IMG/VR virus record: IMGVR_UViG_2541047722_000003
Strand: one strand, 5' to 3'
DNA: 13,144 nucleotides
Source of the DNA: a virus
Lineage: Duplodnaviria > Heunggongvirae > Uroviricota > Caudoviricetes
The notes under the pieces: generated by a model
What the model was told of the DNA's origin: nothing
Databases searched by the model: none
Seen by the model: the letters and a program-made list of their open reading frames with translations, nothing else
Part shown: positions 323 to 13,042 of the stretch, in pieces
Layout: the number at the start of each line of letters is the position of its first letter
Numbering within the stretch: position 1 is the first letter of the stretch
Made by a program: the position numbers and the translations under genes

Positions 323-1576
323 TTACTGCCCAGCAATAACGATGCCCGTATATTCAGGAACCAGTACAGAGCAACCGTACAGAGTGGTGAAACGCGCAGT
401 GGTTACGCCTTTGATGTGGTCGAAGGAGTAAGACATGATCAGCGTAGCGCCCTGCTCGGTGGTTGCTGTCATTACCTGTGGACCCTGACCAGTTGGGAAC
501 GCCAGTTTGCCGTACATCAGTTCAACAGAACCATCAGCCCAGAACAGGTTAGCAGGTGCTGCGTTCTTGTTGAGAATGGTGATTGCTGCTGATTCTGCCG
601 GTTTGGCATCGACGTTTGCATATGGACGACTCGCAACATCAGTATTTTCAACAGGGAGAATCTTTGGAGAAATTGTTACGGTAGTTCCGCTAACAGCCAG
701 AACACGGAATACCTGCGGTTGACCGGTGGTATCTTTTGTGATCTGGTGTACGGAATTCACACCGGCAATGGTGAACGCATCACCAACCTGCAAGCCAGAT
801 GCAGATACCGTAATAGTCCCCTGTCGGTTATCAACTGGCATACCATTTGAATCTTTCGCTTCAACCTTGTGTTCAGGTTGGCCTGATACTGTCAAGGATT
901 CAGTGCTTCCTTTCGGTAATCGACCAGAAATATCGGTCTTGTAGCTATCGAAGGACGCAACCGGAGGGATTTGCGCTTTTTCGTATGCTGTCAGGGTTGC
1001 GCCCTGAGCATAGGCACGGTGACCAAGCTCGCCAGCAAGGTCTTTGTAGTTGAAGGGGTTCCAGAAAGAGCGACGGTTGATACCCTGAGGTACACCAATC
1101 GCCGTCATGGTGGCATCAATACCTGCCGCACAGTTCCACAAATCACGGCCCTGTGTACCTGCGGTTGAGTCAGCCATCGTGATCACGTTAGTAGCACGCT
1201 GCGTGACCATGGAAATCAGGTCAGAGTCAATCTGTGCAGCAAGGCGCATACCTGCGGCGCGACCAGCTTCAGTTTTATGTTCCGGATCACGCATTTCACG
1301 CGCATCCAGAGTGTACAGAATGTTTTTCGGCTCCTTGAACACTGAAGGAACAAGGCGCTGAACCAGTGCTGTTGGCGTTTTGCTGCTGAGGTCGAGGCCT
1401 TCCTCAATATTCATGTGGTAATGCTGCGGACGATACAGAACATCACCTGCTCGCTGCATTGCTGTATCACCGGGACGGAATTTTTTAGCGTTACGGGAAA
1501 CTACGCAGGCGGCCTCAAAGCCTTCAACGTAGTTTTCGAACATGATTTCAAGGTCTTTTGCTAATTGGTTAGCCAT
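323..1576 (-). CDS. Major capsid (coat) protein, P22 gp5-like
   Basis: 417-aa ORF with a GGAG Shine-Dalgarno 8 nt upstream. Length and several blocks resemble P22-type coat proteins as I recall them (e.g. AKKFRPGDTAMQR, FWNPFNYKDLAG, RPYANVDAKPAESAAITILN...LFWADGSVEL). It sits in the conserved portal-scaffold-coat order. Confidence 0.8.
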   Translation of the reverse strand: MANQLAKDLEIMFENYVEGFEAACVVSRNAKKFRPGDTAMQRAGDVLYRPQHYHMNIEEGLDLSSKTPTALVQRLVPSVFKEPKNILYTLDAREMRDPEHKTEAGRAAGMRLAAQIDSDLISMVTQRATNVITMADSTAGTQGRDLWNCAAGIDATMTAIGVPQGINRRSFWNPFNYKDLAGELGHRAYAQGATLTAYEKAQIPPVASFDSYKTDISGRLPKGSTESLTVSGQPEHKVEAKDSNGMPVDNRQGTITVSASGLQVGDAFTIAGVNSVHQITKDTTGQPQVFRVLAVSGTTVTISPKILPVENTDVASRPYANVDAKPAESAAITILNKNAAPANLFWADGSVELMYGKLAFPTGQGPQVMTATTEQGATLIMSYSFDHIKGVTTARFTTLYGCSVLVPEYTGIVIAGQ

Positions 1577-1594
1577 GCTTAATGCTCCAATAGG

Positions 1595-2488
1595 TTATTT
1601 TTTTGCCTTTTTAGCGGCGAAATACGGCGTCCAGTCACCAGTTTCCAGCGCCTTGGCTTTCAATTTGTCGAGGTTGTTGATTACTGCGCCGTTGCTCCCC
1701 TTAACCGTCGGGGTTGTGGCTGCCGTGGTTTTTGCTTTTGGCATGATTCTGGCCTTCGATTCGATACGTTCCAGCAGACGACCAATTGCTACGGGGTTGG
1801 TAGCTTCTGCCAGTTGCTTGCGCAGTTCAGCGTTGCGACCAAGCGCCAGAACAACGATTTCCGGCTTCTCTGACTCAAACAGGATCGCGTTTTGTGTCTC
1901 GATGGGGATTTCCTCGAGTACGGCCTGCTCAGCTTCCTGATAGCCAGGAACTTTGAGAGCCTTAACACGTTGCTGATATTTGGATAATCGCTCTTGATAG
2001 GCAGCCTGAAGCTCCTGCTCCTTCTGCTTGCGAGCCATCTCCTGTTGCTGGTACTTGCCATTATCCTCTGCCCACTTAGCCATGCGTTGCTGGTAGATTT
2101 CTTCATCGAAACCGATGTCCTCATCATCCAGTTTTGGCATTCGCGGTGGTTGAGTGATTACCGGCTGCTGCTCGACGGGTTTCTGAGACTGACGCATCAG
2201 CTCTTTCAGCTCGCGGTCTTTCTCTTTAATCGTCTTGCGCAGGTGTTTTACCAGTCCATGCTCAGCGCCATCTTCGCTGGTTGGCGAATCCAGCTTTTCG
2301 TCACCAAAGTAGAATTCCTGTTCTGATTCGTCGTCATCAGTTTCAGTAGCCTCCTCTGCATCATTGCCTGAGGACTCACTGCCATCTTCTGTTTCGACTT
2401 TTTCAGCCAGTTCGACATCATCAGGAATCTGCTCTGACGCGTCGGTTTCGATTTCAACTTCTGGTGTGTTTTCTGCCATCTGGTCCAT
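1595..2488 (-). CDS. Scaffolding protein, P22 gp8-like
   Basis: 297-aa highly charged, E/K/Q-rich protein with an acidic N-terminus and a basic C-terminal tail (KLKAKALETGDWTPYFAAKKAKK). Position between portal and coat matches the P22 order. Confidence 0.65.
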   Translation of the reverse strand: MDQMAENTPEVEIETDASEQIPDDVELAEKVETEDGSESSGNDAEEATETDDDESEQEFYFGDEKLDSPTSEDGAEHGLVKHLRKTIKEKDRELKELMRQSQKPVEQQPVITQPPRMPKLDDEDIGFDEEIYQQRMAKWAEDNGKYQQQEMARKQKEQELQAAYQERLSKYQQRVKALKVPGYQEAEQAVLEEIPIETQNAILFESEKPEIVVLALGRNAELRKQLAEATNPVAIGRLLERIESKARIMPKAKTTAATTPTVKGSNGAVINNLDKLKAKALETGDWTPYFAAKKAKK

Positions 2489-2578
2489 TTGTTACCCCTG
2501 TTTACTCGATGTTCAGCCCATCGGAAGGCAATAGGGTGCCAGGCCTCATAAAGACAGCCATTGCACGTTATGGGTTAA

Positions 2579-4777
2579 TTACTGCTGTGGTTGTTGCTGA
2601 GTTGATTTTTGCAGGATGCTGCTGATGTCCATGCGCTGCGCATGGCCCTGTGCCTGACTTTTCAGGACAAGCTCTGCATCAGCACGGGCATTGTCTCCTT
2701 GCTGTTGCTGGAACTGTCCGAGCAGTTTCAGAGCCTCGCGGATATCAGATTTCTGCTGGCTATCGGCAGATGCGAGGATTTTCACAACATTTGCCGCTGC
2801 AACCTGAGCATCAGTCTGTGCCTGGAATGCTTTAACCTGAATGGCTGCCTGCTCGTTCTGCGCTTTCTGCAATTCAGCCTGACCAGCAAGAAGCTGACCT
2901 TGCGCAGCAACCATAGCCGGATCTGGCTGACTGGCCTGTTGTTGTTTCGCCTGCTCAACCATCTGCTGTTCTTCTGGCGTTCTCGGCTTGATAACTCCAG
3001 ACAGAAGCAACTGATTGCGGTTGTATTCTTTAAGGTCGTCCATCCCTTCGCCGTCCATATTGTCGAGGATCATCGACGATACAAGGTCGTGTTTCGGCGT
3101 TCCGGGCGGGATAAGTGCCAGCATGGAAAGTAACGACTTAACCGTTGCGTCACGGCGAGTAGCGAACGACTGACCGACATCGACAGTCACTTCATAGTTA
3201 CCCTGCGAAAGGTCGTTAAGCGCGATAACCTGCCCTGTCTGACGGTCAACCACTTCACCAGTCATCAGCGCCACGTCATCGCTGCCGTCCTCATTAACGA
3301 TACGCATCGGCGTATCGCTGCCATAGACTTCACGAGCCATAGAAAGCCACACAACGCCAGCGCGACGCATGGATTTAGCCATGTTGTCCATGTAGATATA
3401 GGACTGCGTATCCATCCGGTTAAAGATGCTATCAACGGTATCGGTAGCAACGTTGCTCGGCATGTTCTCAAGCTGCGACGCACCTGTAATTTGCTGAATA
3501 GCCGTTCCGGTGTACTGCAATAGCCCGGCAAGAGCTGGAGGCATTTGTGTCGGAGGCGTATAACTGCTGACCTGAGCCTGCGCAGTAATATCTCCGTTTT
3601 TGTTTTTCAGACTGACCATCGGCAGGAACGCCGGGCGCTTTTTGTTGCGCTCCGCCCAATGAGTGGCGAGAGGACCAGGAATCATGTCAACATCAACTAC
3701 AGGAATGCCATCACCGCCAGCCTGAGTAGCGTTATCTGCAATCATGGAAACCATCAGGTTCTCAAGACGCTGTGCATCCATCGCTTTTGCTGCGTGGCCT
3801 TCGATTCGTTCCTGATTATCAACAAATGAGCGACGTCCATATACCGGGATGAGAGGAATATGTTCGCCCGGAATACGCTTCGGTTCTTCCAGCCATTCAG
3901 CGCCAGACAGAAGGCCGCAATAAACGCGGCGTTTCTTCACCGTTCGCTCGCCAATCAGTTCGAATGCACCATCGGTCAGCTCGTCGACAATATCTTTGAT
4001 TTGCTCTTCATCATAGATTGCCGTTTCTCCGCTAACAGGGTTGCGCCATGCCGTGAGCTTCACCTTCTCTATGCGAACTTCGTAGTAGCGCCCAACATAG
4101 ATGGCATCTGGCGTTGACCAGTCATATTGAGTGCCAGTCTCATCACGAGAAAGGCCTGCCGCGATGGAATCAGGGTATTCAGCCTCGAACGCTTTAGGCG
4201 TCATGGAGAACATTTCCATAGCCCACATAGCATCAGAACGGTCATATTGCTTGCTGTCCTGATCGAAGAAGACGCATGTCGCTGGGTCGTAAACAGGAAG
4301 AAGGCTGATGCGTCGCTGCTCGTTACTTGGGTCCATTTCATCTTCGTAATCGGCACACATGCGGAAACAACCGAATCCGCCCGTTACAGCATCATCAAAT
4401 GCGTTATCACACGCTTCGCCACCTGATGTTTCCTGATAGTCAGCGCGGAATTTGCCGTTCATCTTTTTGGCTAACGCTTCCGATGCCTTGTCATCCTTCG
4501 GCCTGAATTTAACGCTGATGCGATTCTGTCGATACTCGCCAATGATGCGATCACATTCACGGGCAATCTTATTCAGTTCAAAGCGCGGGTAATGCTCAAA
4601 CCTGCCTTCATCAAATGAGTAACCAGCGTTTGTGCTGCCTTCCCACTGTGCGCCGGATACCCGGACGAAACGTTGAGCCTCAATAATCTGCTCACGCATA
4701 TCCTGCGTTGCTGACCAGGCATTATCAAAGTTGCACAGCACCTTGCGATGCCAGTCAGTCATCTTTTTTTCTGCCAT
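2579..4777 (-). CDS. Portal protein, P22 gp1-like
   Basis: 732-aa ORF. C-terminal region PRTPEEQQMVEQAKQQQASQPDPAMVAAQGQLLAGQAELQKAQN closely resembles the P22 portal barrel region as recalled. Size and position immediately downstream of large terminase fit. Confidence 0.85.
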   Translation of the reverse strand: MAEKKMTDWHRKVLCNFDNAWSATQDMREQIIEAQRFVRVSGAQWEGSTNAGYSFDEGRFEHYPRFELNKIARECDRIIGEYRQNRISVKFRPKDDKASEALAKKMNGKFRADYQETSGGEACDNAFDDAVTGGFGCFRMCADYEDEMDPSNEQRRISLLPVYDPATCVFFDQDSKQYDRSDAMWAMEMFSMTPKAFEAEYPDSIAAGLSRDETGTQYDWSTPDAIYVGRYYEVRIEKVKLTAWRNPVSGETAIYDEEQIKDIVDELTDGAFELIGERTVKKRRVYCGLLSGAEWLEEPKRIPGEHIPLIPVYGRRSFVDNQERIEGHAAKAMDAQRLENLMVSMIADNATQAGGDGIPVVDVDMIPGPLATHWAERNKKRPAFLPMVSLKNKNGDITAQAQVSSYTPPTQMPPALAGLLQYTGTAIQQITGASQLENMPSNVATDTVDSIFNRMDTQSYIYMDNMAKSMRRAGVVWLSMAREVYGSDTPMRIVNEDGSDDVALMTGEVVDRQTGQVIALNDLSQGNYEVTVDVGQSFATRRDATVKSLLSMLALIPPGTPKHDLVSSMILDNMDGEGMDDLKEYNRNQLLLSGVIKPRTPEEQQMVEQAKQQQASQPDPAMVAAQGQLLAGQAELQKAQNEQAAIQVKAFQAQTDAQVAAANVVKILASADSQQKSDIREALKLLGQFQQQQGDNARADAELVLKSQAQGHAQRMDISSILQKSTQQQPQQ

Positions 4778-4778
4778 A

Positions 4779-5438
4779 TCAACCTACACCACAAGGAATT
4801 GAGTAACTGGAATAGTCGGGTTGCGCAGCCGACTCCGGGCAATGCATACACATCATCAGCGCATCAGCCAGGTTAGGAGATGGGATACCGAGCTTCTGCT
4901 TCATTTCGACCTTAGTCATAAGCTCCAGTTTCCCGTTATTATTGAATTTGCGCTGAATCTGCGTCAGTTCTGCAAACAGTTTCTCCAGCATCTTCTCGCC
5001 TATCGCTTCTTTGTCGAAGCTCAGCATGTCGTCGGGGTCTGCATACTCACCGTGGACAACCGCCCGATATGTCAGATACAGCCTGTCAGCCAGCGCGTAA
5101 TAGAATTGCGCTCGCTTATTGCGGAATACATCGCCAATAGTGCGAACGTTGTCACCCTGTACGACTTCATCAGCCCATGCTCCGGCCTGATACGGAGCAT
5201 CTTCATCGAATGGCGATTCGCTGCCCTTGAACATCGTGGCGGTAATTTTCTTGCCGGAGAATGCTTCCGTTGTCTGTCTGCGTAGCCCTGCACCGACACC
5301 ATCGCCATCCCACAGGTAATGGTCAGCGCCGTCTTCAATCGCCAGCGAAGTAGCCCAGTCAGCACCCTCGTTGATGTCCATCAGCAGACCTTCGGCAATG
5401 CGCTTAACTACCGAACCGTGACGCGATGCATAACCTTT
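4779..5438 (-). pseudogene. Large terminase subunit, C-terminal fragment, separated from its N-terminal part by IS629
   Basis: Phage-derived reading frame of 219 codons from 5438 to the TGA at 4779-4781. The first 31 residues of the tracked ORF (5439-5531) are read-through into the IS629 left end. The frame is continuous with the 6749..7508 fragment once the IS and one target duplication (1314 bp) are removed. Confidence 0.8.
5435..5438. repeat. IS629 target-site duplication, left copy (CTTT)
   Basis: CTTT immediately precedes the IS (TG at 5439-5440) and CTTT at 6749-6752 immediately follows its last base (CA at 6747-6748). Confidence 0.7.
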
Positions 5439-5492
5439 TGAACCGCCCCGGGAATCCTGGAGACTAAACTTCCTGAGAAAGAGGTAAACAGG

Positions 5493-5819
5493 ATGACTAA
5501 AAATACTCGTTTTTCCCCCGAAGTCCGTCAACGGGCAGTCCGTATGGTTCTGGAAAGTCAGAGCGAATATGACTCACAATGGGCGACAATTTGTTCCATT
5601 GCTCCAAAGATTGGCTGTACGCCGGAGACTCTGCGTGTCTGGGTTCGCCAGCATGAGCGGGATACCGGGGGCGGTGATGGAGGGCTCACCACCGCTGAAC
5701 GTCAGCGTCTGAAAGAGCTGGAACGTGAAAATCGTGAACTGCGCCGCAGTAACGATATCCTTCGCCAGGCTTCCGCTTATTTTGCGAAGGCGGAGTTCGA
5801 CCGCCTCTGGAAAAAATGA
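5493..5819 (+). CDS. IS629 OrfA (transposase N-terminal helix-turn-helix component)
   Basis: 108-aa ORF with a GAGG Shine-Dalgarno. The sequence [22 protein letters not shown]...[33 protein letters not shown] has the leucine-zipper-like end typical of IS3-family OrfA. Confidence 0.9.
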
Positions 5820-6706
5820 TGCCACTGCTGGATAAGCTGCGTGAGCAGTACGGGGTCGGACCGCTATGCAGCGAACTGCATATTGCCCCGTCAACGTATT
5901 ACCACTGTCAGCAACAGCGACATCATCCGGATAAACGCAGTGCCCGTGCGCAGCGCGATGACTGGCTGAAGAAAGAGATACAGCGCGTATACGATGAAAA
6001 TCACAAGGTATACGGTGTGCGTAAAGTCTGGCGTCAGTTGTTACGGGAAGGTATCAGAGTGGCCAGATGCACTGTGGCACGTCTCATGGCGGTTATGGGA
6101 CTTGCCGGTGTTCTCCGGGGTAAAAAGGTCCGTACGACCATCAGCCGGAAAGCCGTTGCCGCAGGCGACCGCGTAAACCGTCAGTTCGTGGCAGAACGAC
6201 CTGACCAGCTGTGGGTGGCTGATTTTACTTACGTCAGCACATGGCGGGGCTTCGTCTATGTGGCGTTCATCATTGATGTGTTTGCCGGATACATCGTGGG
6301 GTGGCGGGTCTCATCGTCCATGGAAACGACATTCGTGCTGGATGCACTGGAGCAGGCGTTATGGGCCCGTCGACCGTCCGGCACGGTCCATCACAGTGAT
6401 AAAGGTTCTCAGTATGTATCGCTGGCCTACACACAGCGGCTTAAGGAAGCCGGATTACTGGCATCAACAGGAAGTACAGGCGACTCGTATGACAACGCGA
6501 TGGCGGAGAGCATCAATGGTCTTTACAAAGCGGAGGTAATACACCGTAAGAGCTGGAAAAACCGTGCAGAAGTGGAACTGGCCACACTCACGTGGGTGGA
6601 CTGGTATAACAATCGACGATTGCTGGAAAGGCTGGGCCATACTCCTCCGGCAGAAGCAGAAAAAGCTTATTATGCTTCCATCGGAAACGATGATCTGGCA
6701 GCCTGA
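5816..6706 (+). CDS. IS629 OrfB (transposase catalytic DDE domain), expressed as an OrfAB fusion by -1 frameshift
   Basis: 296-aa ORF in the -1 frame relative to orfA, overlapping the orfA stop at the A-rich stretch tggAAAAAAtga (5808-5819). Contains DDE-type integrase motifs ([23 protein letters not shown]). Confidence 0.9.
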
Positions 6707-6748
6707 GTTCACAGATAAAACACTCTCCAGGAAACCCGGGGCGGTTCA

Positions 6749-6752
6749 CTTT
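6749..6752. repeat. IS629 target-site duplication, right copy (CTTT)
   Basis: Identical to 5435-5438 and directly abuts the IS629 right terminus. Confidence 0.7.
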
Positions 6753-7508
6753 AGCATCTGGCCCTGTATCTGATGGGTCATGCGCAGAGACAACAGCGCC
6801 TTTCGCTTTCCATCCGAGTTTCTTGTGCGCATCGGTTGCGGCTTCAAGCCATTCACGTTTGATGATTGCCATATCACTTGCGCTTACTGGCTCACCAAGC
6901 CAGATGTGACGATACAGTGTCGGGTTTCTGCGTTTACACTCTTCCATCTCCAGACGGAGAACTTCAGGAAAGTGCGGGTTGTCGGTGTAGTTCACCGTCA
7001 GCAGACAAATATCATCGGGAGGGTTTACTACGAATCGCTGATAGGTATCGTCGAGGATGTTTTTCGGGTTGAAGCTCACCCATATTTCGGAAAATGGCTT
7101 GCGGATGGTTGGTATCAGGATATCCCATGATTCCTTCGTTACCGCTTCCGCTTCCTCCACCCAGCAGATATCAATGCCTTCGAGCGATTTAATCTTCGTC
7201 GGGTTGTTTTTGATGCCGTAGAACATGAACTCAGCATTCGTCCCGAGATGACGAATCATGGAACGCTGAATTTCAAACTCAGCCGTATACCCTTCACGCT
7301 CTATGGTGTCTTCAAGCAGCCGGATTACCGAATCGCTGATACTGTTTTGCAGTTCACGAGCGCAGAGAATACGCACTGGCTGCCGACGCGCCGCTTCAAC
7401 AAGCAGTCTCGCAATTGCCCATGATTTACCGCTACCTCGACCGCCTTTGGCGACTTTGTAGCGATGCGCCTCAATGAACGGTTCAAAGATAGGATTAATC
7501 GAGGTCAT
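6749..7508 (-). pseudogene. Large terminase subunit, N-terminal ATPase fragment, interrupted by IS629
   Basis: ATG at 7508 overlaps the terS stop. Walker A-like motif KGGRGSGKS near the N-terminus. About 253 phage-derived codons, then the frame runs into the IS629 right end (the last 53 residues of the tracked 306-aa ORF are IS-encoded). Confidence 0.85.
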
Positions 7509-7945
7509 TTTCCGAATAGAGTACTCATCGGTGATGTTTCAATCTGGATTGCGCCGCCGTCTTTGCCTGTTAGCTCGTGATCAACCTTGTCGCGCCATTT
7601 ATCCTTCTGTCGGTTCTTAAGCCAGAAGATGGCAGCTGTTGTATCAGGCGGGTAATACTTCTCAAGAGGAGTTTCGACAATTCTGTTTTCAATAACACGA
7701 ATATCGATGTCTGGAGCCACGAAGCCCATAGCGCGTTGATAAAGACGGTCACTAACTTCTGCATCAGCGACGGCCTTACCCTTTTTTATGGACTCCGAAA
7801 ACTCAGGATAATCAAGCTTCCACTTGTTAATAGTTGACTCACTGACTTCGAAGAAATCAGCAAGCTCTGCATCGGTGTAGCCCAGCAAGCACAGTTTGCG
7901 TGCCTGTTCGGCATACGCCTCTTGATACTTTGTTGGGCGCGCCAT
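7505..7945 (-). CDS. Small terminase subunit
   Basis: 146-aa ORF immediately upstream of and overlapping large terminase by 4 bp. The N-terminal segment (MARPTKYQEAYAEQARKLCLLGYTDAELADFFEVSESTINKWK) resembles the helix-turn-helix region of phage small terminase families as recalled. Confidence 0.75.
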   Translation of the reverse strand: MARPTKYQEAYAEQARKLCLLGYTDAELADFFEVSESTINKWKLDYPEFSESIKKGKAVADAEVSDRLYQRAMGFVAPDIDIRVIENRIVETPLEKYYPPDTTAAIFWLKNRQKDKWRDKVDHELTGKDGGAIQIETSPMSTLFGK

Positions 7946-7947
7946 GT

Positions 7948-8190
7948 TTATGCTCCGGTGGTGAACAGGTCTAACGCTTCCTTCGATTTACGCACCGCTT
8001 CGATAGTGCGGGTCGTGATATCTGAATTAGCGCCGCCTGACTGGAAGTGAATTTTGAATAGCTCAAGCTTCAGTTCGTCAGTGCCAATGAACTGAAATGC
8101 TTCCTCTGCGGCTGCGTTCTGGTTCATGACCAGCTTGTAAATCTCTAACTGGAATTTCTGTTCTTCAGTCATGGGAATAATCTCTGCCAT
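7948..8190 (-). CDS. Hypothetical phage protein (80 aa) upstream of terS
   Basis: ORF with a GGAG Shine-Dalgarno 8 nt upstream of the ATG at 8190-8188, tightly packed against terS. No recognisable motif. Confidence 0.5.
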   Translation of the reverse strand: MAEIIPMTEEQKFQLEIYKLVMNQNAAAEEAFQFIGTDELKLELFKIHFQSGGANSDITTRTIEAVRKSKEALDLFTTGA

Positions 8191-8225
8191 TGTTGGCTCC
8201 GTTTATCCGTTAAAAGGGATATCAG

Positions 8226-8229
8226 TTAA
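8226..8229. repeat. IS5 target-site duplication, left copy (TTAA)
   Basis: TTAA at 8226-8229 and at 9425-9428 directly flank the 16-bp IS5 terminal inverted repeats. Fits the known YTAR target preference. Confidence 0.75.
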
Positions 8230-9424
<1,195 letters not shown>

Positions 9425-9428
9425 TTAA
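9425..9428. repeat. IS5 target-site duplication, right copy (TTAA)
   Basis: See left copy. Confidence 0.75.
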
Positions 9429-9445
9429 CTGTGAATAATCCATTG

Positions 9446-9622
9446 TCATTTCCTCGCACGATGTCTTAGCAACCGGATATCCCACAGGTGAGCCGTGTAG
9501 TTGAAGGTTTTTACGTCAGATTCTTTTGGGATTGGCTTGCGTTTATTTCTGGTGCGTTTCGTTGGAAGGTATTTGCAGTTTTCGCAGATGATGTCGGTGA
9601 TACTTCGTCGCTGTCGCCTCAT
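9446..9622 (-). CDS. Small basic protein (58 aa), possibly NinE-like
   Basis: ATG at 9622-9620 overlaps the ninB stop (ATGA coupling) and is preceded by an AGGAGG Shine-Dalgarno. Very basic, with a single CxxC (CENC). Tentative NinE-like assignment rests only on size, position after ninB and vague sequence recollection. Confidence 0.55.
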
Positions 9623-10029
9623 TCGTACCTCCTGTCGGTAAATCTGACACCCTGACCAATAGCCCATGCTGTTGTGTACTCGATCAGACTTGCCATACGC
9701 TTCACACTCATCTGCGCGCTGCTTTCGCGAATGTTGACGTATTCGCCTTCAAGCCCGGGCAAAACATCAGCTTCCTGTTTTGTTGCCACTGCATGACCGC
9801 TGATCAACAAAACCTTCCATTGTTCTGGTTTTAACCATTTATCGCGCCACTGAACTTGCCTAGCGATATCTGCGACCATCGCGTGAAATTTTGCGTTCTG
9901 GTCAAGGTTGCGCTTGTAGTCAGTAATGCGGATGGTGACTGGCTTGTCTTTATCGAGTGGTGTTGCGAGGATGGCATTTATTGCAGCTTGCTGTTGTTGC
10001 TTAGTTCGGAGGAATATTGTTTGCTTCAC
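9619..10029 (-). CDS. ninB: NinB-like recombination protein (lambda Orf family)
   Basis: 136-aa ORF with a GTG start at 10029 preceded by an AAGGAG Shine-Dalgarno. The block [26 protein letters not shown] parallels the SLDQNRKLWACLGDVSRQVEWHGRWL block of lambda NinB as recalled. Position downstream of the replication genes fits. Confidence 0.7.
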
Positions 10030-10040
10030 TGAATACTCCT

Positions 10041-10226
10041 TTATTTTTTATGCCTGTAACCCCATTCTTCCAGCAACCTTGCGGCGTACCACCCAAGAAA
10101 CAAAGGAAAGAACATTACAATGAGATATTTCCCGCCACGGTCAATGTTCGAAATTGACCAGATTACGATGTAACCAGTGCAGGACAGGAATATTACAAAC
10201 CCCAAAAAGCTACTTCGTCGACTCAT
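10041..10226 (-). CDS. Small membrane protein (about 61 aa, two predicted transmembrane segments), function unknown
   Basis: ATG at 10226-10224 with an AAGGAG Shine-Dalgarno 5 nt upstream; the tracked GTG at 10232 is too close to that Shine-Dalgarno. Two hydrophobic stretches (FLGFVIFLSCTGYIVIWSI and YLIVMFFPLFLGWYAARLL) and a charged C-terminus (EEWGYRHKK). Confidence 0.55.
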   Translation of the reverse strand: MSRRSSFLGFVIFLSCTGYIVIWSISNIDRGGKYLIVMFFPLFLGWYAARLLEEWGYRHKK

Positions 10227-10228
10227 GC

Positions 10229-10543
10229 TCACTCCTTCACTTTGATTCCAGCGGCGCGGATAGCCTCTACATCGCTTTCGTATTGCGATTCTGCACCTGA
10301 GTCATAGCCAATGTGATAATCACCGGGAAGTGGGCCTTTCTTTGGCTTTTGCAGCTCAATTTCAATAGCTGCTCTCGATGCCTGCCACGTTTGCCAGTGG
10401 CCTTGAACATCGTCCATCACGTATTGACCACCAATATCACCACTGCCAATTTCATGGTGATTTTCAGGGTAACGGATAAGGTCTGAAGATTCGCCCCCCA
10501 CGTCGTAACCAACTCTCTTCAAACTGGCATCTGCTTTCGTCAT
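10229..10543 (-). CDS. Hypothetical acidic protein (104 aa) with an internal GYD-x-G-(A/G)ES repeat; may be the downstream part of a frameshifted gene
   Basis: ORF with a weak ribosome-binding site whose first 80 nt overlap the preceding Cys-rich ORF in another frame. Contains repeated VGYDVGGESSD / IGYDSGAESQYESD motifs and a net acidic charge. Confidence 0.4.
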   Translation of the reverse strand: MTKADASLKRVGYDVGGESSDLIRYPENHHEIGSGDIGGQYVMDDVQGHWQTWQASRAAIEIELQKPKKGPLPGDYHIGYDSGAESQYESDVEAIRAAGIKVKE

Positions 10544-10646
10544 CTTTCATAAGGCAGTCACATTCAATAAAAATCGGCTCTCCCCAAGGAGTAGAACCTC
10601 CGCTATCACACATTCCTGTGTTATTGCACTTTTGGCACTTGCTCAC
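10464..10646 (-). CDS. Small Cys-rich protein (60 aa), putative zinc-binding, function unknown
   Basis: GTG start at 10646 with a GGAGG Shine-Dalgarno 5 nt upstream. Six cysteines including CQKC and CDC pairs. The 3' end overlaps the 104-aa ORF across a C6/G6 homopolymer (10494-10499). Confidence 0.5.
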   Translation of the reverse strand: MSKCQKCNNTGMCDSGGSTPWGEPIFIECDCLMKDDESRCQFEESWLRRGGRIFRPYPLP

Positions 10647-10658
10647 ATTAACCTCCGA

Positions 10659-10865
10659 TTAACTCACAAAACGCCACGCCACTTTTGCTACGACAACAGG
10701 CATAACACCGATAATCACCCACAGAAAAATGCTACCGAAAAGCACACCAACCAGGTCTTTACCTTCGCCTACCAACCGGACAAAACTGCTGGCAACCACA
10801 ATGAACGTCGCCACCATCCACATAGCACCGAGAATCCTCAATGCAGAAAAAATCAACTCAACCAC
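10659..10865 (-). CDS. Small membrane protein (68 aa, two predicted transmembrane segments), function unknown
   Basis: GTG start at 10865 preceded by a GGGGGAGGG Shine-Dalgarno. Almost entirely hydrophobic (LIFSALRILGAMWMVATFIVVASSF ... VLFGSIFLWVIIGVMPVVVA). First gene after the tR2-like terminator. Confidence 0.5.
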   Translation of the reverse strand: MVELIFSALRILGAMWMVATFIVVASSFVRLVGEGKDLVGVLFGSIFLWVIIGVMPVVVAKVAWRFVS

Positions 10866-10880
10866 GATTTACCCTCCCCC

Positions 10881-10911
10881 AAATAAAAAGGCCTGCGATT
10901 ACCAGCAGGCC
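10881..10911 (-). terminator. Rho-independent terminator downstream of the helicase gene (lambda tR2 equivalent)
   Basis: 7-bp perfect stem GGCCTGC (10890-10896) / GCAGGCC (10905-10911) with an 8-nt loop, followed on the minus-strand transcript by UUUUUAUUU (complement of 10881-10889). Confidence 0.65.
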
Positions 10912-10937
10912 TGTTACAAGCTCAGTGATGTAGATGG

Positions 10938-12314
10938 TCATACGTCAGCCCCTTGTGCATATCGTCTGCCACGCGCAGCAGGTGCATTTGATGCTGTGCA
11001 AATCTGTCTGGCTTCATCCTGGTCACATGCAACAAAGTGTCCGTTGCAGAACCGCTGGTAAACCGTACCAAGTGAGCCAAAACGGTTTTTCGTCACGATG
11101 ATTTCAGCAAATGGCGCGGCGCTACTGTTCTCGTCATATACCGCTTCCCGATAGAGCATGATGATTGAGTCTGCGTCCTGTTCAATGCTTCCTGAATCAC
11201 GCAAATCTGCGTTTGTCGGGCGTTTGTTTGGTCGCTTCTCAACATCGCGTGAAAGCTGACTCAGGGAAATAACCGGTGTTTTCAGGTCTTTCGCCATCGC
11301 CTTCAGGCTTCCGGAGATGTGAGCAATTGCGAGGTCGTTGCGGTCTGCTTTCGGCTTCTCAATCAGGCCAAGATAATCCGCCATGATGAGTGAGAGGTTT
11401 GGATTTTCCTGTTTGTGCCGTTCTGCGATTGAGCGTATTTCTTCGACCGATAATCGCGAGGCATCGACTACCCATACATCCAAATCTGCAAGCTGACTCA
11501 TGCCGTTAGCAACACGTGCCCAGCCCTCGTCATCCATCGATGCAGGATTTCGCAGTACGCTAACCGACATCCTCCCGGCGTTGGCAATGCTTCGCTCTGC
11601 AATCTGCAATGCGCTCATTTCCATTGAGAAAATCAATACCCCGCGCCGGACGTCAGAACCAGGAATAACGCGGCTTGCAACGCCTTCGGCAATCTTCAGC
11701 GCCAGTTCGGTTTTCCCCATACCAGGACGAGCAGCGATTATCACCAGGTCTTCCGCGTTCATCCCTCCGGTGATGGCATCAAGTTCTTCGATTCCGGTCT
11801 TCAGGGTATCGGACTCTTCTCCGTTCCTCAGACGCCTGTCAAGCGTGTCAGTGTAGTCGGTGATGATTTCCCCTAACCGTACAGGTTTAACCTCGTCACG
11901 GGGCTTTCTGATGGCTGAGAGACGTTTTACAAGTTCATCCATCGCCTGACTCGATGCGTCGATGGTTCCGCTTTGGATTGGTTCACGCATTTCATCCATG
12001 ATTTCCAGCACCAGACGGCGGTGATAGTTATCCGCGACCATTCCGGCATATCCCTTCAGGTTTGCGGCGCTCGGGCAGTTTTTGCTGGTCATCAGGATTG
12101 ACGTGAAATGCTCCTCTCCGCACGCCTCGGCAACCATCAGCGCGTCGATTAGGTTTCTGTTTCTCGCCTGCTTCCGGATAACCTCGAAGGCTTTCCGGTA
12201 GAGCGGAATTGAAAACGCTTCCGGCTCCAGCGTTGCAAGAACGTCACTGGCGGTTGGAGTTAATCCACCAATCAGCAGGCCACCGATAACGCTCGCTTCG
12301 ATATCCTGTCTCAT
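10938..12314 (-). CDS. Replicative DNA helicase, DnaB-like (P22 gene 12 type)
   Basis: 458-aa ORF. Walker A ARPGMGKT, then LIFSMEMS, and an [12 protein letters not shown]...[21 protein letters not shown] block typical of DnaB-family helicases. ATG overlaps the stop of the upstream replication gene (ATGA). Confidence 0.88.
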
Positions 12315-13042
12315 GCAATCCCCCTGTCTGCAAACTTCCCTTCCCGAACTCCCGTTAACGAGTCTTCTCTCAGCAGGTAATCAAAATCAGCCGTCCAGCC
12401 CGTGTCGTTGTCTCCGAAGTAAAACGGCTTGGCCTGATGCACAAACGCCCTGACATACGCTCTGAAACCGTCCACGTTTGGCGTTTTCAGTTGCGGGATG
12501 ATTTTCTTCAGGCGGCGTTTTCGTTTCTCGTTGACCGCAACAGCGTGTGGCAGTCTGTCACCGACTTCGGTGTTGTAGGCGTTCAGGAAGGATTCGTAGT
12601 CGATTCGTTCTGCCTTGCGACGTTCAGGTTTAACCTGCCCATCGCCTCCCCCATTGGGGGGTAGGGGGGTATTATTTATATTCTTGTTAATACCTTCTTG
12701 TTCATGATGTGCGGTTGTTTGTGCGGCTTCATGTGCGCTTTCATGTGCGGCATGTACGCTGAAAGCCGCGCTATTGCTGGCTTCATCATGTGCGGCATCA
12801 TGTGCGGTTGTTTGTGCGGCTTCATGTGCGGGTAAATTGTCCATTTTTTGAGCATATTCATGGTAATTTGTGATGGTTATCACACGGCCTTTTTGCTTCT
12901 CTCCATCAATGGAGATCATCCCCTCTTTCACAAAAACCTGAAGCATCCGCTCAACCTGATCACGGCTTGCTGGCTTGCCATGTCTGTCGCATAACTGAAG
13001 ACCTAAATCAGCTGCTGTCACAACCAGTTGACCGGGTTGCAG
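12311..13042 (-). pseudogene. Replication initiator (lambda O / P22 gene 18-like), 5'-truncated by IS629
   Basis: The frame is open from the IS629 junction (13042) down to the TGA at 12311-12313 with no stop; the tracked GTG at 13021 is probably not the native start. Contains an embedded iteron array and an adjacent AT-rich tract, as in the lambdoid ori-within-O arrangement. Translationally coupled to the helicase. Confidence 0.6.
12703..12831. repeat. Putative origin-of-replication iteron array inside the initiator gene
   Basis: Nine copies of a 12-bp unit with core (C/T)ATGTGCGG in two blocks (12703-12759 and 12784-12831), including a 35-bp higher-order repeat (12705-12739 vs 12797-12831, 2 mismatches). 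Followed in the direction of transcription by an AT-rich tract (12671-12700) and a G/C-rich run (12655-12669). Confidence 0.6.

What the first reader, a model, noticed from the sequence alone, without database searches (positions are those of the whole stretch)
10041..10865. Tightly packed four-ORF cluster of small membrane, Cys-rich and acidic proteins between the tR2-like terminator and ninB
Four small genes lie directly after the tR2-like terminator and before ninB. Two are predicted two-transmembrane proteins (68 aa and about 61 aa) and they bracket a 60-aa six-cysteine protein and a 104-aa acidic protein with an internal GYD-x-G-x-ES repeat. Three have strong Shine-Dalgarno sequences (two with GTG starts) and near-zero spacing, so they look like real co-transcribed genes. 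I could not assign any of them to a known family. This ren/ninA-equivalent slot is variable in lambdoid phages and often carries exclusion, toxin or anti-defence morons. Acidic small proteins can act as DNA mimics and small membrane proteins as abortive-infection effectors, but nothing in the sequence proves either.
Basis: partly seen in the sequence, partly recalled or inferred. Interest (0 to 1): 0.65.

Follow-up and report, generated by a model that had tools for sequence, protein, structure and literature searches.

The report
Three small prophage genes, one broken
The "four-gene cluster" is really three small accessory genes of unknown function in the usual variable slot of a decaying lambda/P22-type prophage; the "cysteine-rich" and "acidic" ORFs are two halves of one gene split by a one-base insertion, so the finding is ordinary.

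Summary
All genes lie on the minus strand between a DnaB-type helicase gene with a tR2-like terminator (10889-10912) and ninB. The ORFs exist, but the four-gene reading is wrong. The 60-aa and 104-aa ORFs are halves of one 138-aa gene (B). It is split by one extra base in a G-run: C6 at 10494-10499 on the + strand, against five in phage phiv205-1. Removing one base restores a protein identical to the phiv205-1 product. RefSeq annotates this gene as a frameshifted "phiTE_015 family" pseudogene. About 30 independent complete E. coli genomes carry the same allele, and about 170 carry the in-frame one, so it is an inherited mutation. The "GYD-x-G-x-ES repeat" is partly an out-of-frame artefact. 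Gene A (68 aa, phrog_1165) and gene C (61 aa from ATG 10226, an orphan family, dN/dS about 0.2) are real two-helix membrane proteins. B belongs to Pfam PF26207, which is uncharacterised and highly mosaic, and carries an N-terminal CxxC...CxC zinc-knuckle module. No promoter-like site, defence-system match or solved-structure analogue was found. A, B and C assort semi-independently among lambdoid phages. The host prophage is itself dead: IS5 has deleted its Q and lysis genes, and an IS3-family element interrupts its terminase. Function is unknown; these are probably non-essential delayed-early accessory genes. Interest is low.

The parts
10938..12314 (-). DnaB-type replicative helicase gene, the upstream neighbour and last replication gene of the early-right operon
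   Evidence: Pfam DnaB_C E=9.5e-78 and DnaB E=4.5e-13; phrog_19; RefSeq 'replicative DNA helicase'.
10879..10912 (-). tR2-like intrinsic terminator: 8-bp stem with 6 GC pairs, then a TTTTATTT tail
   Evidence: Terminator scan. The homologous site is annotated as terminator tR2 in HK620 and Sf6.
10858..10941 (-). NinA-like 27-aa mini-ORF. It overlaps the helicase stop codon (ATGA), spans the terminator hairpin and overlaps the start of gene A.
   Evidence: The translation [27 protein letters not shown] is identical to HK620 NinA. Whether it is a real gene was not tested.
10659..10865 (-). Gene A: 68-aa protein with two hydrophobic helices, GTG start, GGAGGG Shine-Dalgarno site 6 nt upstream
   Evidence: phrog_1165 E=6.7e-36 over its full length. 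193 protein clusters, nearly all 68 aa. RefSeq WP_000229808.1, hypothetical. Hydropathy. Narrow family: 17 representatives at 50% identity.
10229..10646 (-). Gene B, a pseudogene here. The ancestral product is 138 aa: a zinc-knuckle N-terminal extension joined to a PF26207 (Phage_phiTE_015) domain. It now reads as a 60-aa ORF (10464-10646) plus a 104-aa ORF (10229-10543).
   Evidence: Alignment to phiv205-1. The repaired translation is identical to QGF19944.1 / P0001. RefSeq marks it 'frameshifted'. phrog_343 hits on both halves. PF26207 hit precomputed; family name.
10494..10499 (-). Frameshift site: a G6 run on the coding strand (C6 on the + strand), where in-frame alleles have G5
   Evidence: One search shows the single-base difference; of 205 E. 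coli genomes with this segment, 30 match the window exactly and at least one more (S88) keeps its length, so about 31 in all carry G6; the rest are one base shorter. G5 to G6 is 32 to 2 across the fetched loci (almost all IMG/VR viral contigs, plus four annotated reference loci).
10554..10646 (-). N-terminal CxxC...CxC zinc-knuckle module of gene B (residues 1-31), GTG start with a GGAGG Shine-Dalgarno site
   Evidence: 53-66% identical modules are fused to unrelated proteins in the lytic phages Seurat, PAK_P3 and Peggy. Weak hits to phrog_3956 and phrog_19867.
10041..10226 (-). Gene C: 61-aa protein with two hydrophobic helices. Its ATG lies 2 nt after the stop codon of B, with AAGGAG 5 nt upstream.
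   Evidence: Intact in all 8 fetched loci that carry it, in several different gene contexts. A 72%-identical 61-aa homologue sits 20 nt after a DnaB gene, with dN/dS 0.20. Not annotated by RefSeq in the four records inspected; annotated in two phage records.
9619..10029 (-). ninB (Orf-family recombination mediator), the downstream neighbour
   Evidence: Pfam NinB E=4.6e-53; phrog_72.

Best explanation
This region is the ordinary, highly mosaic accessory slot at the start of the nin region of a P22-like (Lederbergvirus-type) lambdoid prophage. It holds three small genes, not four.
- Gene A: 68 aa, two hydrophobic helices.
- Gene B: ancestrally 138 aa, a zinc-knuckle extension joined to an acidic PF26207 / phiTE_015-family domain. 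Here it is inactivated by a +1 insertion in a G5 run.
- Gene C: 61 aa, two hydrophobic helices.

Shown:
- The frameshift.
- Its inheritance across about 30 E. coli genomes.
- Family memberships.
- Purifying selection on C.
- Lack of any sigma-70-like promoter site.
- The position directly behind the tR2-like terminator.
- Semi-independent assortment of A, B and C.

Inferred:
- The genes are transcribed only as part of the pR delayed-early transcript, when N-type antitermination reads through the terminator.
- They are translated by coupling, given the 2-12 nt gaps and Shine-Dalgarno sites embedded in the upstream genes.
- A and C insert into the inner membrane as N-in/C-in hairpins, because the positive charges sit at the termini.
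- B was a cytoplasmic zinc-binding protein whose hypervariable tail contacts some host or rival-phage component.
- Like other nin genes, they are non-essential lytic-cycle accessories, most likely acting in host takeover or inter-phage competition.

In this particular prophage B is dead. The element as a whole is defective, so the cluster is probably a relic.
For: - Frameshift: one search shows one extra C at 10494. One search shows the repaired product is identical to the phiv205-1 138-aa protein. One search shows the halves hitting consecutive parts of phrog_343. Searches show RefSeq 'frameshifted' / 'phiTE_015 family protein'.
- Real mutation, not an error: searches find the identical allele in about 30 independently sequenced genomes (ATCC 11775, APEC O1, S88 and others). 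The in-frame allele is in about 170 genomes and in 32 of 34 fetched loci, almost all viral contigs.
- Family of B: PF26207 is precomputed on all 120 listed relatives and named Phage_phiTE_015.
- Gene A is real.
- Gene C is real.
- Terminator present and no promoter-like site.
- Mosaicism: A-like DNA is in 539 genomes, C in 195, the B core in 205, and the whole block in only 55.
- Nin genes are tightly packed, non-essential and drawn from a pool of 30-50 genes: PMC8022706 and PMC5630979.
- Defective prophage: (IS5 replaces about 5.5 kb including Q and the lysis genes; a second insertion lies in the terminase gene).
Against: - No expression data were available, so transcription and translation of A and C, and the 138-aa versus 106-aa start of B, remain inferred. 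RefSeq annotates the shorter start.
- Function is not established for any of the three genes.
- A and B are adjacent more often than full independence would suggest: 65 of 79 B loci, and a PF26207 gene lies near 4 of 6 distant A homologues. Some functional coupling therefore cannot be excluded.
- The truncated 60-aa zinc-knuckle peptide could still be made and could be active.
Confidence: 0.82

Rival explanations
1. One reading: four separate co-transcribed genes, including an independent 60-aa six-cysteine protein and an independent 104-aa acidic protein with an internal repeat.
For: Both ORFs are open in the window. The 60-aa ORF has a strong Shine-Dalgarno site.
Against: - The ORFs overlap by 80 nt, and the 104-aa start has no Shine-Dalgarno site.
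- Removing one base fuses them into a protein identical to that of a 99.9%-identical phage.
- About 170 of 205 genomes carry the fused form.
- RefSeq flags a frameshift.
- The first copy of the repeat is out of frame.
Confidence: 0.03
2. The G6 run is a programmed frameshift or phase-variable switch. It would let the prophage make either a short zinc-knuckle peptide or the full protein.
For: The mutation lies in a homopolymer, the classic substrate for slippage. Both G5 and G6 alleles exist in nature.
Against: - G6 was seen together with 100%-identical flanking DNA in one prophage type in related strains (mostly O1/O2:K1 and avian/extra-intestinal pathogenic isolates). This fits a single inherited event.
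- A run of 5-6 G is short for efficient slippage.
- No stimulatory structure or Rfam element was found in this region.
- The same prophage carries other frameshifted or partial genes.
Confidence: 0.04
3. The extra base is a sequencing or assembly error in a homopolymer, and gene B is intact in the real genome.
For: Homopolymer indels are common errors on some sequencing platforms.
Against: The same G6 allele appears in about 30 complete genomes from many laboratories, years and platforms. These include Sanger-era genomes APEC O1 and S88.
Confidence: 0.03
4. A, B and a small downstream membrane protein form one functional module. In this view a membrane hairpin works with a cytoplasmic protein that has a hypervariable recognition tail, for example in superinfection exclusion, abortive infection or anti-defence. 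The cluster would then be a system rather than a chance neighbourhood.
For: - A sits directly upstream of B in 65 of 79 B loci and 47 of 80 A loci.
- In a distant phage, an A homologue that only a profile search recovers (E about 1e-4) overlaps a PF26207 gene by 4 nt.
- 4 of 6 distant A homologues have a PF26207 gene in the same operon.
- B is followed by unrelated small hydrophobic proteins in three phages.
- B has a hypervariable segment between conserved junctions.
Against: - A occurs without B in 33 of 80 loci. B occurs without A in Sf6, Stx2-1717 and Hafnia phages.
- Spacing and order vary: up to 4 genes lie between them, and the order is reversed in L017.
- C is present in only a small minority of loci.
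- Both families are simply common residents of the same slot, so co-occurrence is expected.
- PADLOC gave no hit.
- The lineage of the window tolerates loss of B.
Confidence: 0.1
5. A or C is a lysogen-expressed moron that protects the host, acting as an exclusion protein or a membrane toxin of an abortive-infection system.
For: Small inner-membrane proteins encoded by prophages can block phage DNA entry (general knowledge, for example HK97 gp15 and T4 Imm). Both A and C have two hydrophobic helices.
Against: - There is no promoter-like site in 9400-11300 on either strand.
- The genes sit behind a terminator in the lytic early operon, with no terminator of their own.
- Neither has a PADLOC hit.
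- Neither shows similarity to a known exclusion protein in Pfam, NCBIfam or PHROGs.
Confidence: 0.08

Closest known systems
Pfam PF26207 (Phage_phiTE_015), phrog_343; Shigella phage Sf6 gene 48, HK022 gp59, 933W L0091
   Same: Gene B, once repaired, is a full-length member. The conserved junctions SRxQFE, W..WQASRAAIE and AGxKVK are all present. It occupies the same position between the replication genes and ninB.
   Different: Here it is frameshifted. It also carries a 33-aa zinc-knuckle N-terminal extension that most members lack. The family itself has no known function and no analogue among solved structures.
phrog_1165 (HK022 gp58, HK75 and mEp235 hypothetical proteins)
   Same: Gene A matches end to end at 85-97% identity, with the same length and the same position just after tR2.
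   Different: Nothing notable. The family is uncharacterised and almost confined to enterobacterial lambdoid prophages.
Lambda ren / ninA and P22 / HK620 ninA (occupants of the same slot)
   Same: Same genomic slot after tR2 and before ninB. A 27-aa ORF identical to HK620 NinA overlaps the terminator.
   Different: A, B and C matched no Pfam or NCBIfam model at all, so no Ren or NinA model either. They are alternative occupants of the slot, not homologues.
DnaJ-type CxxCxGxG zinc-finger motif
   Same: The N-terminal module of B has CxxC...CxC. Relatives read CxKCxG[TS]G.
   Different: Only one such unit is present, and the window copy reads CQKCNNTG. There is no Pfam DnaJ zinc-finger hit. Metal binding is untested.
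Small phage inner-membrane proteins (T4 Imm, HK97 gp15, class II holins such as S21)
   Same: Similar size (60-70 aa) and two predicted transmembrane helices.
   Different: No sequence similarity. A and C are not in the lysis cassette; the holin of this prophage type lies elsewhere. A lacks a charged C-terminal tail. They are not expressed from their own promoter. The resemblance is one of shape only.

Membership tests
Pfam PF26207 Phage_phiTE_015 (gene B) | Significant match to the family HMM | tested here: met
   A precomputed PF26207 hit is on record for P0001, which is identical to the repaired B, and for all 120 listed relatives. RefSeq calls the locus 'phiTE_015 family protein'. The local Pfam copy lacks this model, so a direct scan returned nothing.
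Pfam PF26207 Phage_phiTE_015 (gene B) | Intact reading frame giving a full-length domain | tested here: not met
   A +1 base in the G-run at 10494-10499 splits the gene. RefSeq marks it as a pseudogene.
phrog_343 (gene B) | Match along the length of the profile | tested here: met
   The 60-aa half covers profile positions 26-55 (E=0.0032). The 104-aa half covers positions 53-125 (E=6e-23). The two matches are consecutive.
phrog_1165 (gene A) | Full-length match | tested here: met
   E=6.7e-36, residues 1-68 against profile positions 1-68 of 68.
Known anti-phage defence systems (PADLOC-DB) | Match of any component to a defence-system model | tested here: not met
   No families at E<=1 for A, repaired B or C.
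Moron (independently expressed prophage gene) | Own promoter and own terminator flanking the gene | tested here: not met
   No sigma-70-like site in 9400-11300. The only terminator lies upstream of the cluster. This was a consensus scan only and is not proof of absence.
Class II holin / pinholin (A or C) | Two transmembrane helices, a highly charged C-terminal tail, and a position in the lysis cassette next to the endolysin | tested here: not met
   Both have two hydrophobic segments. However, A ends ...AKVAWRFVS, with only two positive charges. The holin, endolysin and spanin genes of this prophage type lie about 4 kb away. No holin families were hit in Pfam or PHROGs.
DNA-mimic anti-restriction proteins (Ocr / ArdA type) for B | Strongly acidic surface together with a fold or sequence related to known mimics | tested here: not met
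DnaJ-type zinc finger (N-terminus of B) | CxxCxGxG repeats that bind zinc | tested here: inconclusive
   There is one CxxC...CxC unit. Relatives have CxxCxGxG, but the window copy reads CQKCNNTG. No Pfam hit. Metal binding cannot be tested with these tools.
Lambda Ren / NinA | Sequence similarity to Ren or NinA | tested here: not met
   A, B and C gave no Pfam or NCBIfam hits. Only the separate 27-aa ORF at 10858-10941 equals HK620 / P22-type NinA.

The most novel reading that the evidence does not exclude
The phrog_1165 membrane hairpin (A) and the PF26207 protein (B), perhaps with a variable small membrane partner such as C, could form a previously unrecognised two- or three-component phage module. 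B's swappable core and hypervariable tail would set the specificity towards a host defence or a rival phage. The zinc-knuckle extension would be an add-on shared with lytic phages.
Probability: 0.1. Interest if true: 0.55.

Novelty: already known. Interest (0 to 1): 0.17.

Why it matters
It matters mainly as a correction. An apparent pair of unusual small proteins, one cysteine-rich and one acidic with a repeat, is an artefact of reading a pseudogene in two frames. The locus is already catalogued: Pfam PF26207, phrog_343, phrog_1165, and a RefSeq 'frameshifted' annotation. Three modest leads remain:
- PF26207 is a very widespread and strikingly modular phage family with no known function and no structural analogue.
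- It is often adjacent to one specific small membrane protein.
- The orphan gene C was not annotated in the RefSeq records inspected, yet it is under purifying selection.

None of these bears on a long-standing open question.

Tried and rejected
- Pfam, NCBIfam and PADLOC scans of A, both halves of B, repaired B and C gave nothing meaningful.
- A PDB sequence search with the B-family profile, and with the Seurat zinc-knuckle protein, gave nothing.
- The AlphaFold model of the 138-aa B was poor (pLDDT 55.6) and was not used for fold search.
- A weak Glyoxalase_4 hit and some 'VOC family' names on 87-aa members fall below the Pfam cut-off and were not supported by the fold search. Rejected.
- A and C as paralogues: hhalign probability 0.7%. 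Rejected.
- B related to the ead/Ea22 genes of the same prophage: no BLASTP similarity. Rejected.
- Rfam and repeat scans found no RNA element or repeat in the cluster.
- Literature searches for phiTE_015, PF26207 and nin-region membrane proteins, plus a check of the Silas et al. accessory-gene screen, found no functional data.
- The source strain could not be identified. No complete E. coli genome has the IS5-ninE junction of the window.
Full report
**Anatomy**

Everything in the finding is encoded on the minus strand. Reading in the direction of transcription, the features are:
- A DnaB-type helicase gene at 10938-12314 (Pfam DnaB_C E=9.5e-78).
- An intrinsic-terminator hairpin at 10889-10912 with a T-rich tail. 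The homologous site is annotated tR2 in HK620 and Sf6.
- ORF A, 68 aa, at 10659-10865.
- A 60-aa ORF at 10464-10646.
- A 104-aa ORF at 10229-10543.
- A 63-aa ORF at 10041-10232.
- ninB at 9619-10029 (Pfam NinB E=4.6e-53).

Simple hydropathy also confirms two hydrophobic segments in the first and last proteins.

**The central correction: two of the ORFs are one broken gene**

- The 60-aa and 104-aa ORFs overlap by 80 nt in different frames.
- In PHROGs the 60-aa ORF matches positions 26-55 of phrog_343 and the 104-aa ORF matches positions 53-125 of the same profile. They are consecutive parts of one family.
- Phage phiv205-1 is 99.9% identical over this region and annotates a single 417-nt gene there.
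- A base-by-base alignment shows only two differences inside the cluster. One is a substitution at 10015. The other is an extra C in the run at 10494-10499: six in the window, five in the phage.
- Deleting one C gives a 138-aa product identical to the phiv205-1 protein and to database protein P0001.
- RefSeq annotates the same locus in E. coli ATCC 11775 and S88 as a frameshifted pseudogene. Newer annotation runs name it 'phiTE_015 family protein'.
- The 104-aa ATG has no ribosome-binding site.
The ancestral frame reads SWLRRGG there. The repeat is therefore not a property of the real protein.

**Is the extra base real?**

The 906-bp block is 100% identical in at least 27 complete E. coli genomes from many laboratories. 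These include the type strain ATCC 11775, APEC O1 and several O1/O2:K1:H7 isolates. An 81-nt probe centred on the run matched 205 genomes. Thirty were identical to the window, and S88 kept the same length with one substitution. The other listed matches were one base shorter, meaning the in-frame G5 allele. Across the fetched loci, almost all of them IMG/VR viral contigs, the ratio of G5 to G6 was 32 to 2. This fits one inactivating mutation inherited within a resident prophage lineage. It does not fit a sequencing error or a programmed shift. That the carriers form a single clade is my inference from strain names and was not tested.

**The host element is decaying**

The window is 100% identical to the ATCC 11775 prophage over 9424-13042, but it differs in two places:
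- An IS5-type element at about 8231-9423 (transposase at 8376-9392, DDE_Tnp_1) replaces about 5.5 kb. In ATCC 11775 that stretch holds ninX, ninF, an antirepressor gene, rusA, ninH, Q, the holin, endolysin and spanin genes, and rha.
- A second, IS3-family element at about 5439-6748 splits the large terminase gene. It encodes HTH_Tnp_1 and rve products and contains the ALIL frameshift pseudoknot at 5774-5890.

The ATCC 11775 copy also carries other frameshifted or partial genes. No complete E. coli genome in the collection shares the IS5-ninE junction.

**Gene A**

- It matches phrog_1165 end to end (E=6.7e-36).
- It has 193 close protein clusters, nearly all exactly 68 aa, in Escherichia and Salmonella.
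- An exhaustive profile search of 1.8 billion representatives found only 17 hits. A handful are distant 63-68-aa relatives that keep the pattern of two helices, a short G..D loop and a C-terminal PV.V.KFAW.FI motif.
- It has no hit in Pfam, NCBIfam or PADLOC.

**Gene C**

- The best start is ATG 10226. It lies 2 nt after the stop codon of B, with AAGGAG 5 nt upstream, and gives 61 aa.
- The family is tiny: four clusters.
- C-like DNA is in 195 of 5426 E. coli genomes and in 4 of 50,697 phage records.
- RefSeq does not annotate it in the four RefSeq records inspected.
- The ORF is intact in all eight fetched loci that carry it, downstream of different genes.
- A 72%-identical 61-aa homologue lies 20 nt after a DnaB gene in an unrelated contig. 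Against that homologue dN/dS is 0.20. I therefore regard C as a real gene.
- A and C are not detectably related (hhalign probability 0.7%).

**Gene B**

All relatives carry a precomputed Pfam hit to PF26207, which is named Phage_phiTE_015. The local Pfam copy lacks this model. The family is strikingly modular:
- An optional N-terminal extension: the zinc knuckle, an unrelated MRWAIKH... module, both, or none.
- A conserved junction SRxQFE.
- One of at least four unrelated core segments.
- An invariant W..WQASRAAIE motif.
- A hypervariable tail of 20-45 aa, in a dozen or more versions.
- A conserved end, A(I)..AG(I/L)KVK. In the window this end contains the ribosome-binding site of the next gene.

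The zinc-knuckle module has the consensus CxKCxG[TS]G...GGVQPWGEPI..ECDC, with four conserved cysteines. At 53-66% identity it is fused to quite different proteins in the lytic phages Seurat, PAK_P3 and Peggy. That argues the GTG-initiated 138-aa form is the true product, rather than the 106-aa form that RefSeq annotates.

**Is it a cassette or a system?**

- In E. coli genomes, A-like DNA occurs in 539 genomes, the B core in 205 and C in 195. The whole block is present at 80% coverage or more in only 55.
- Of 80 IMG/VR loci found with A, 47 have B next to it and 33 go on to ninB without B.
- Of 79 loci found with B, 65 have A upstream. The rest have a DUF7301 gene, another small gene, or nothing.
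- C follows B in a minority of loci.
- Sf6, Stx2-1717 and a Hafnia phage have B without A.
- Among six distant A homologues, four have a PF26207 gene in the same operon. One is directly adjacent, one has a single gene between, one has four genes between, and one has the reverse order.

I read this as two common residents of the same recombination-prone slot. It matches published descriptions of nin genes as tightly packed, non-essential in the laboratory and drawn from a pool of 30-50 genes (PMC8022706; PMC5630979). A looser functional link between A and B is not excluded. I give it about 10%.

**Likely mode of action**

The shown facts are a terminator directly upstream, no promoter-like site on either strand in 9400-11300, and 2-12-nt gaps with embedded Shine-Dalgarno sites. 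From these I infer the following:
- The genes are delayed-early genes, expressed from pR only when antitermination reads through tR2. They are not lysogen-expressed morons.
- A and C are probably N-in/C-in hairpins in the inner membrane, because the positive charges sit at the termini.
- B was probably a cytoplasmic zinc-binding protein with a variable interaction surface.
- Their roles are most plausibly accessory, in host takeover or inter-phage competition. Nothing in the data picks a specific target.

In this window B is inactivated and the prophage cannot complete a lytic cycle.

**Verdict**

The locus is already catalogued, although it is uncharacterised. Interest is low.

Noticed in passing
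window 8231-9423 (transposase ORF 8376-9392, minus strand): An IS5-type element sits right after ninE. Compared with the otherwise identical ATCC 11775 prophage, it replaces about 5.5 kb holding ninX, ninF, an antirepressor gene, rusA, ninH, Q, the lysis genes and rha. The prophage cannot lyse. No complete E. coli genome in the collection shares this junction.
   Followed up: partly
window 5439-6748 (ORFs 5493-5819 and 5816-6706, plus strand): An IS3-family insertion splits the large terminase gene into two ORFs at 4779-5531 and 6588-7508. It encodes HTH_Tnp_1 and rve products. Rfam finds its ALIL programmed-frameshift pseudoknot at 5774-5890 (120 bits).
   Followed up: partly
window 10858-10941, minus strand: A 27-aa hydrophobic ORF identical to HK620 NinA. 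It starts in an ATGA overlap with the helicase stop codon, runs through the tR2-like hairpin and overlaps the start of gene A. Whether it is translated, or is just the terminator read as codons, is unknown.
   Followed up: partly
window 10554-10646; L011 1204-1743, L012 1171-2382, L013 1366-1779: The CxxC...CxC zinc-knuckle module at the N-terminus of gene B recurs at 53-66% identity in unrelated hypothetical proteins. These belong to the lytic phages Seurat (179 aa), Pseudomonas PAK_P3 (403 aa) and Cronobacter Peggy (137 aa). It looks like a promiscuous mini-domain.
   Followed up: partly
alignments A1 and A5 (PF26207 relatives of window 10229-10646): PF26207 proteins are built from swappable pieces: at least 4 unrelated cores and a dozen or more hypervariable tails. 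Short, nearly invariant junctions (SRxQFE, WQASRAAIE, AGxKVK) separate the pieces and look like recombination linkers.
   Followed up: partly
window 10041-10226; L004 about 12012-12197: Gene C is not annotated in the four RefSeq genomes inspected that carry it. It is nevertheless conserved, is preceded by a good Shine-Dalgarno site, and shows dN/dS 0.2 against a 72%-identical homologue. It is probably a missed small membrane-protein gene.
   Followed up: yes
L004 (E. coli ATCC 11775 prophage) 20090-21843: Even in its 'intact' ATCC 11775 copy, the same prophage carries further damaged early-left genes: a partial DUF2737 gene, a partial ead/Ea22-like gene and a frameshifted DUF4752 gene. This fits long residence and decay.
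   Followed up: no
L021 534-1188 (Hafnia phage Meifeng): Two PF26207-like genes lie in tandem (123 aa and 97 aa), so the family can duplicate within one phage.
   Followed up: no
window 1045-5438 compared with 6749-8230 and 9424-13042: The capsid-to-terminase segment is 99.68% identical to ATCC 11775, whereas the other two shared segments are 100% identical. The divergence along the prophage is slightly uneven.
   Followed up: no
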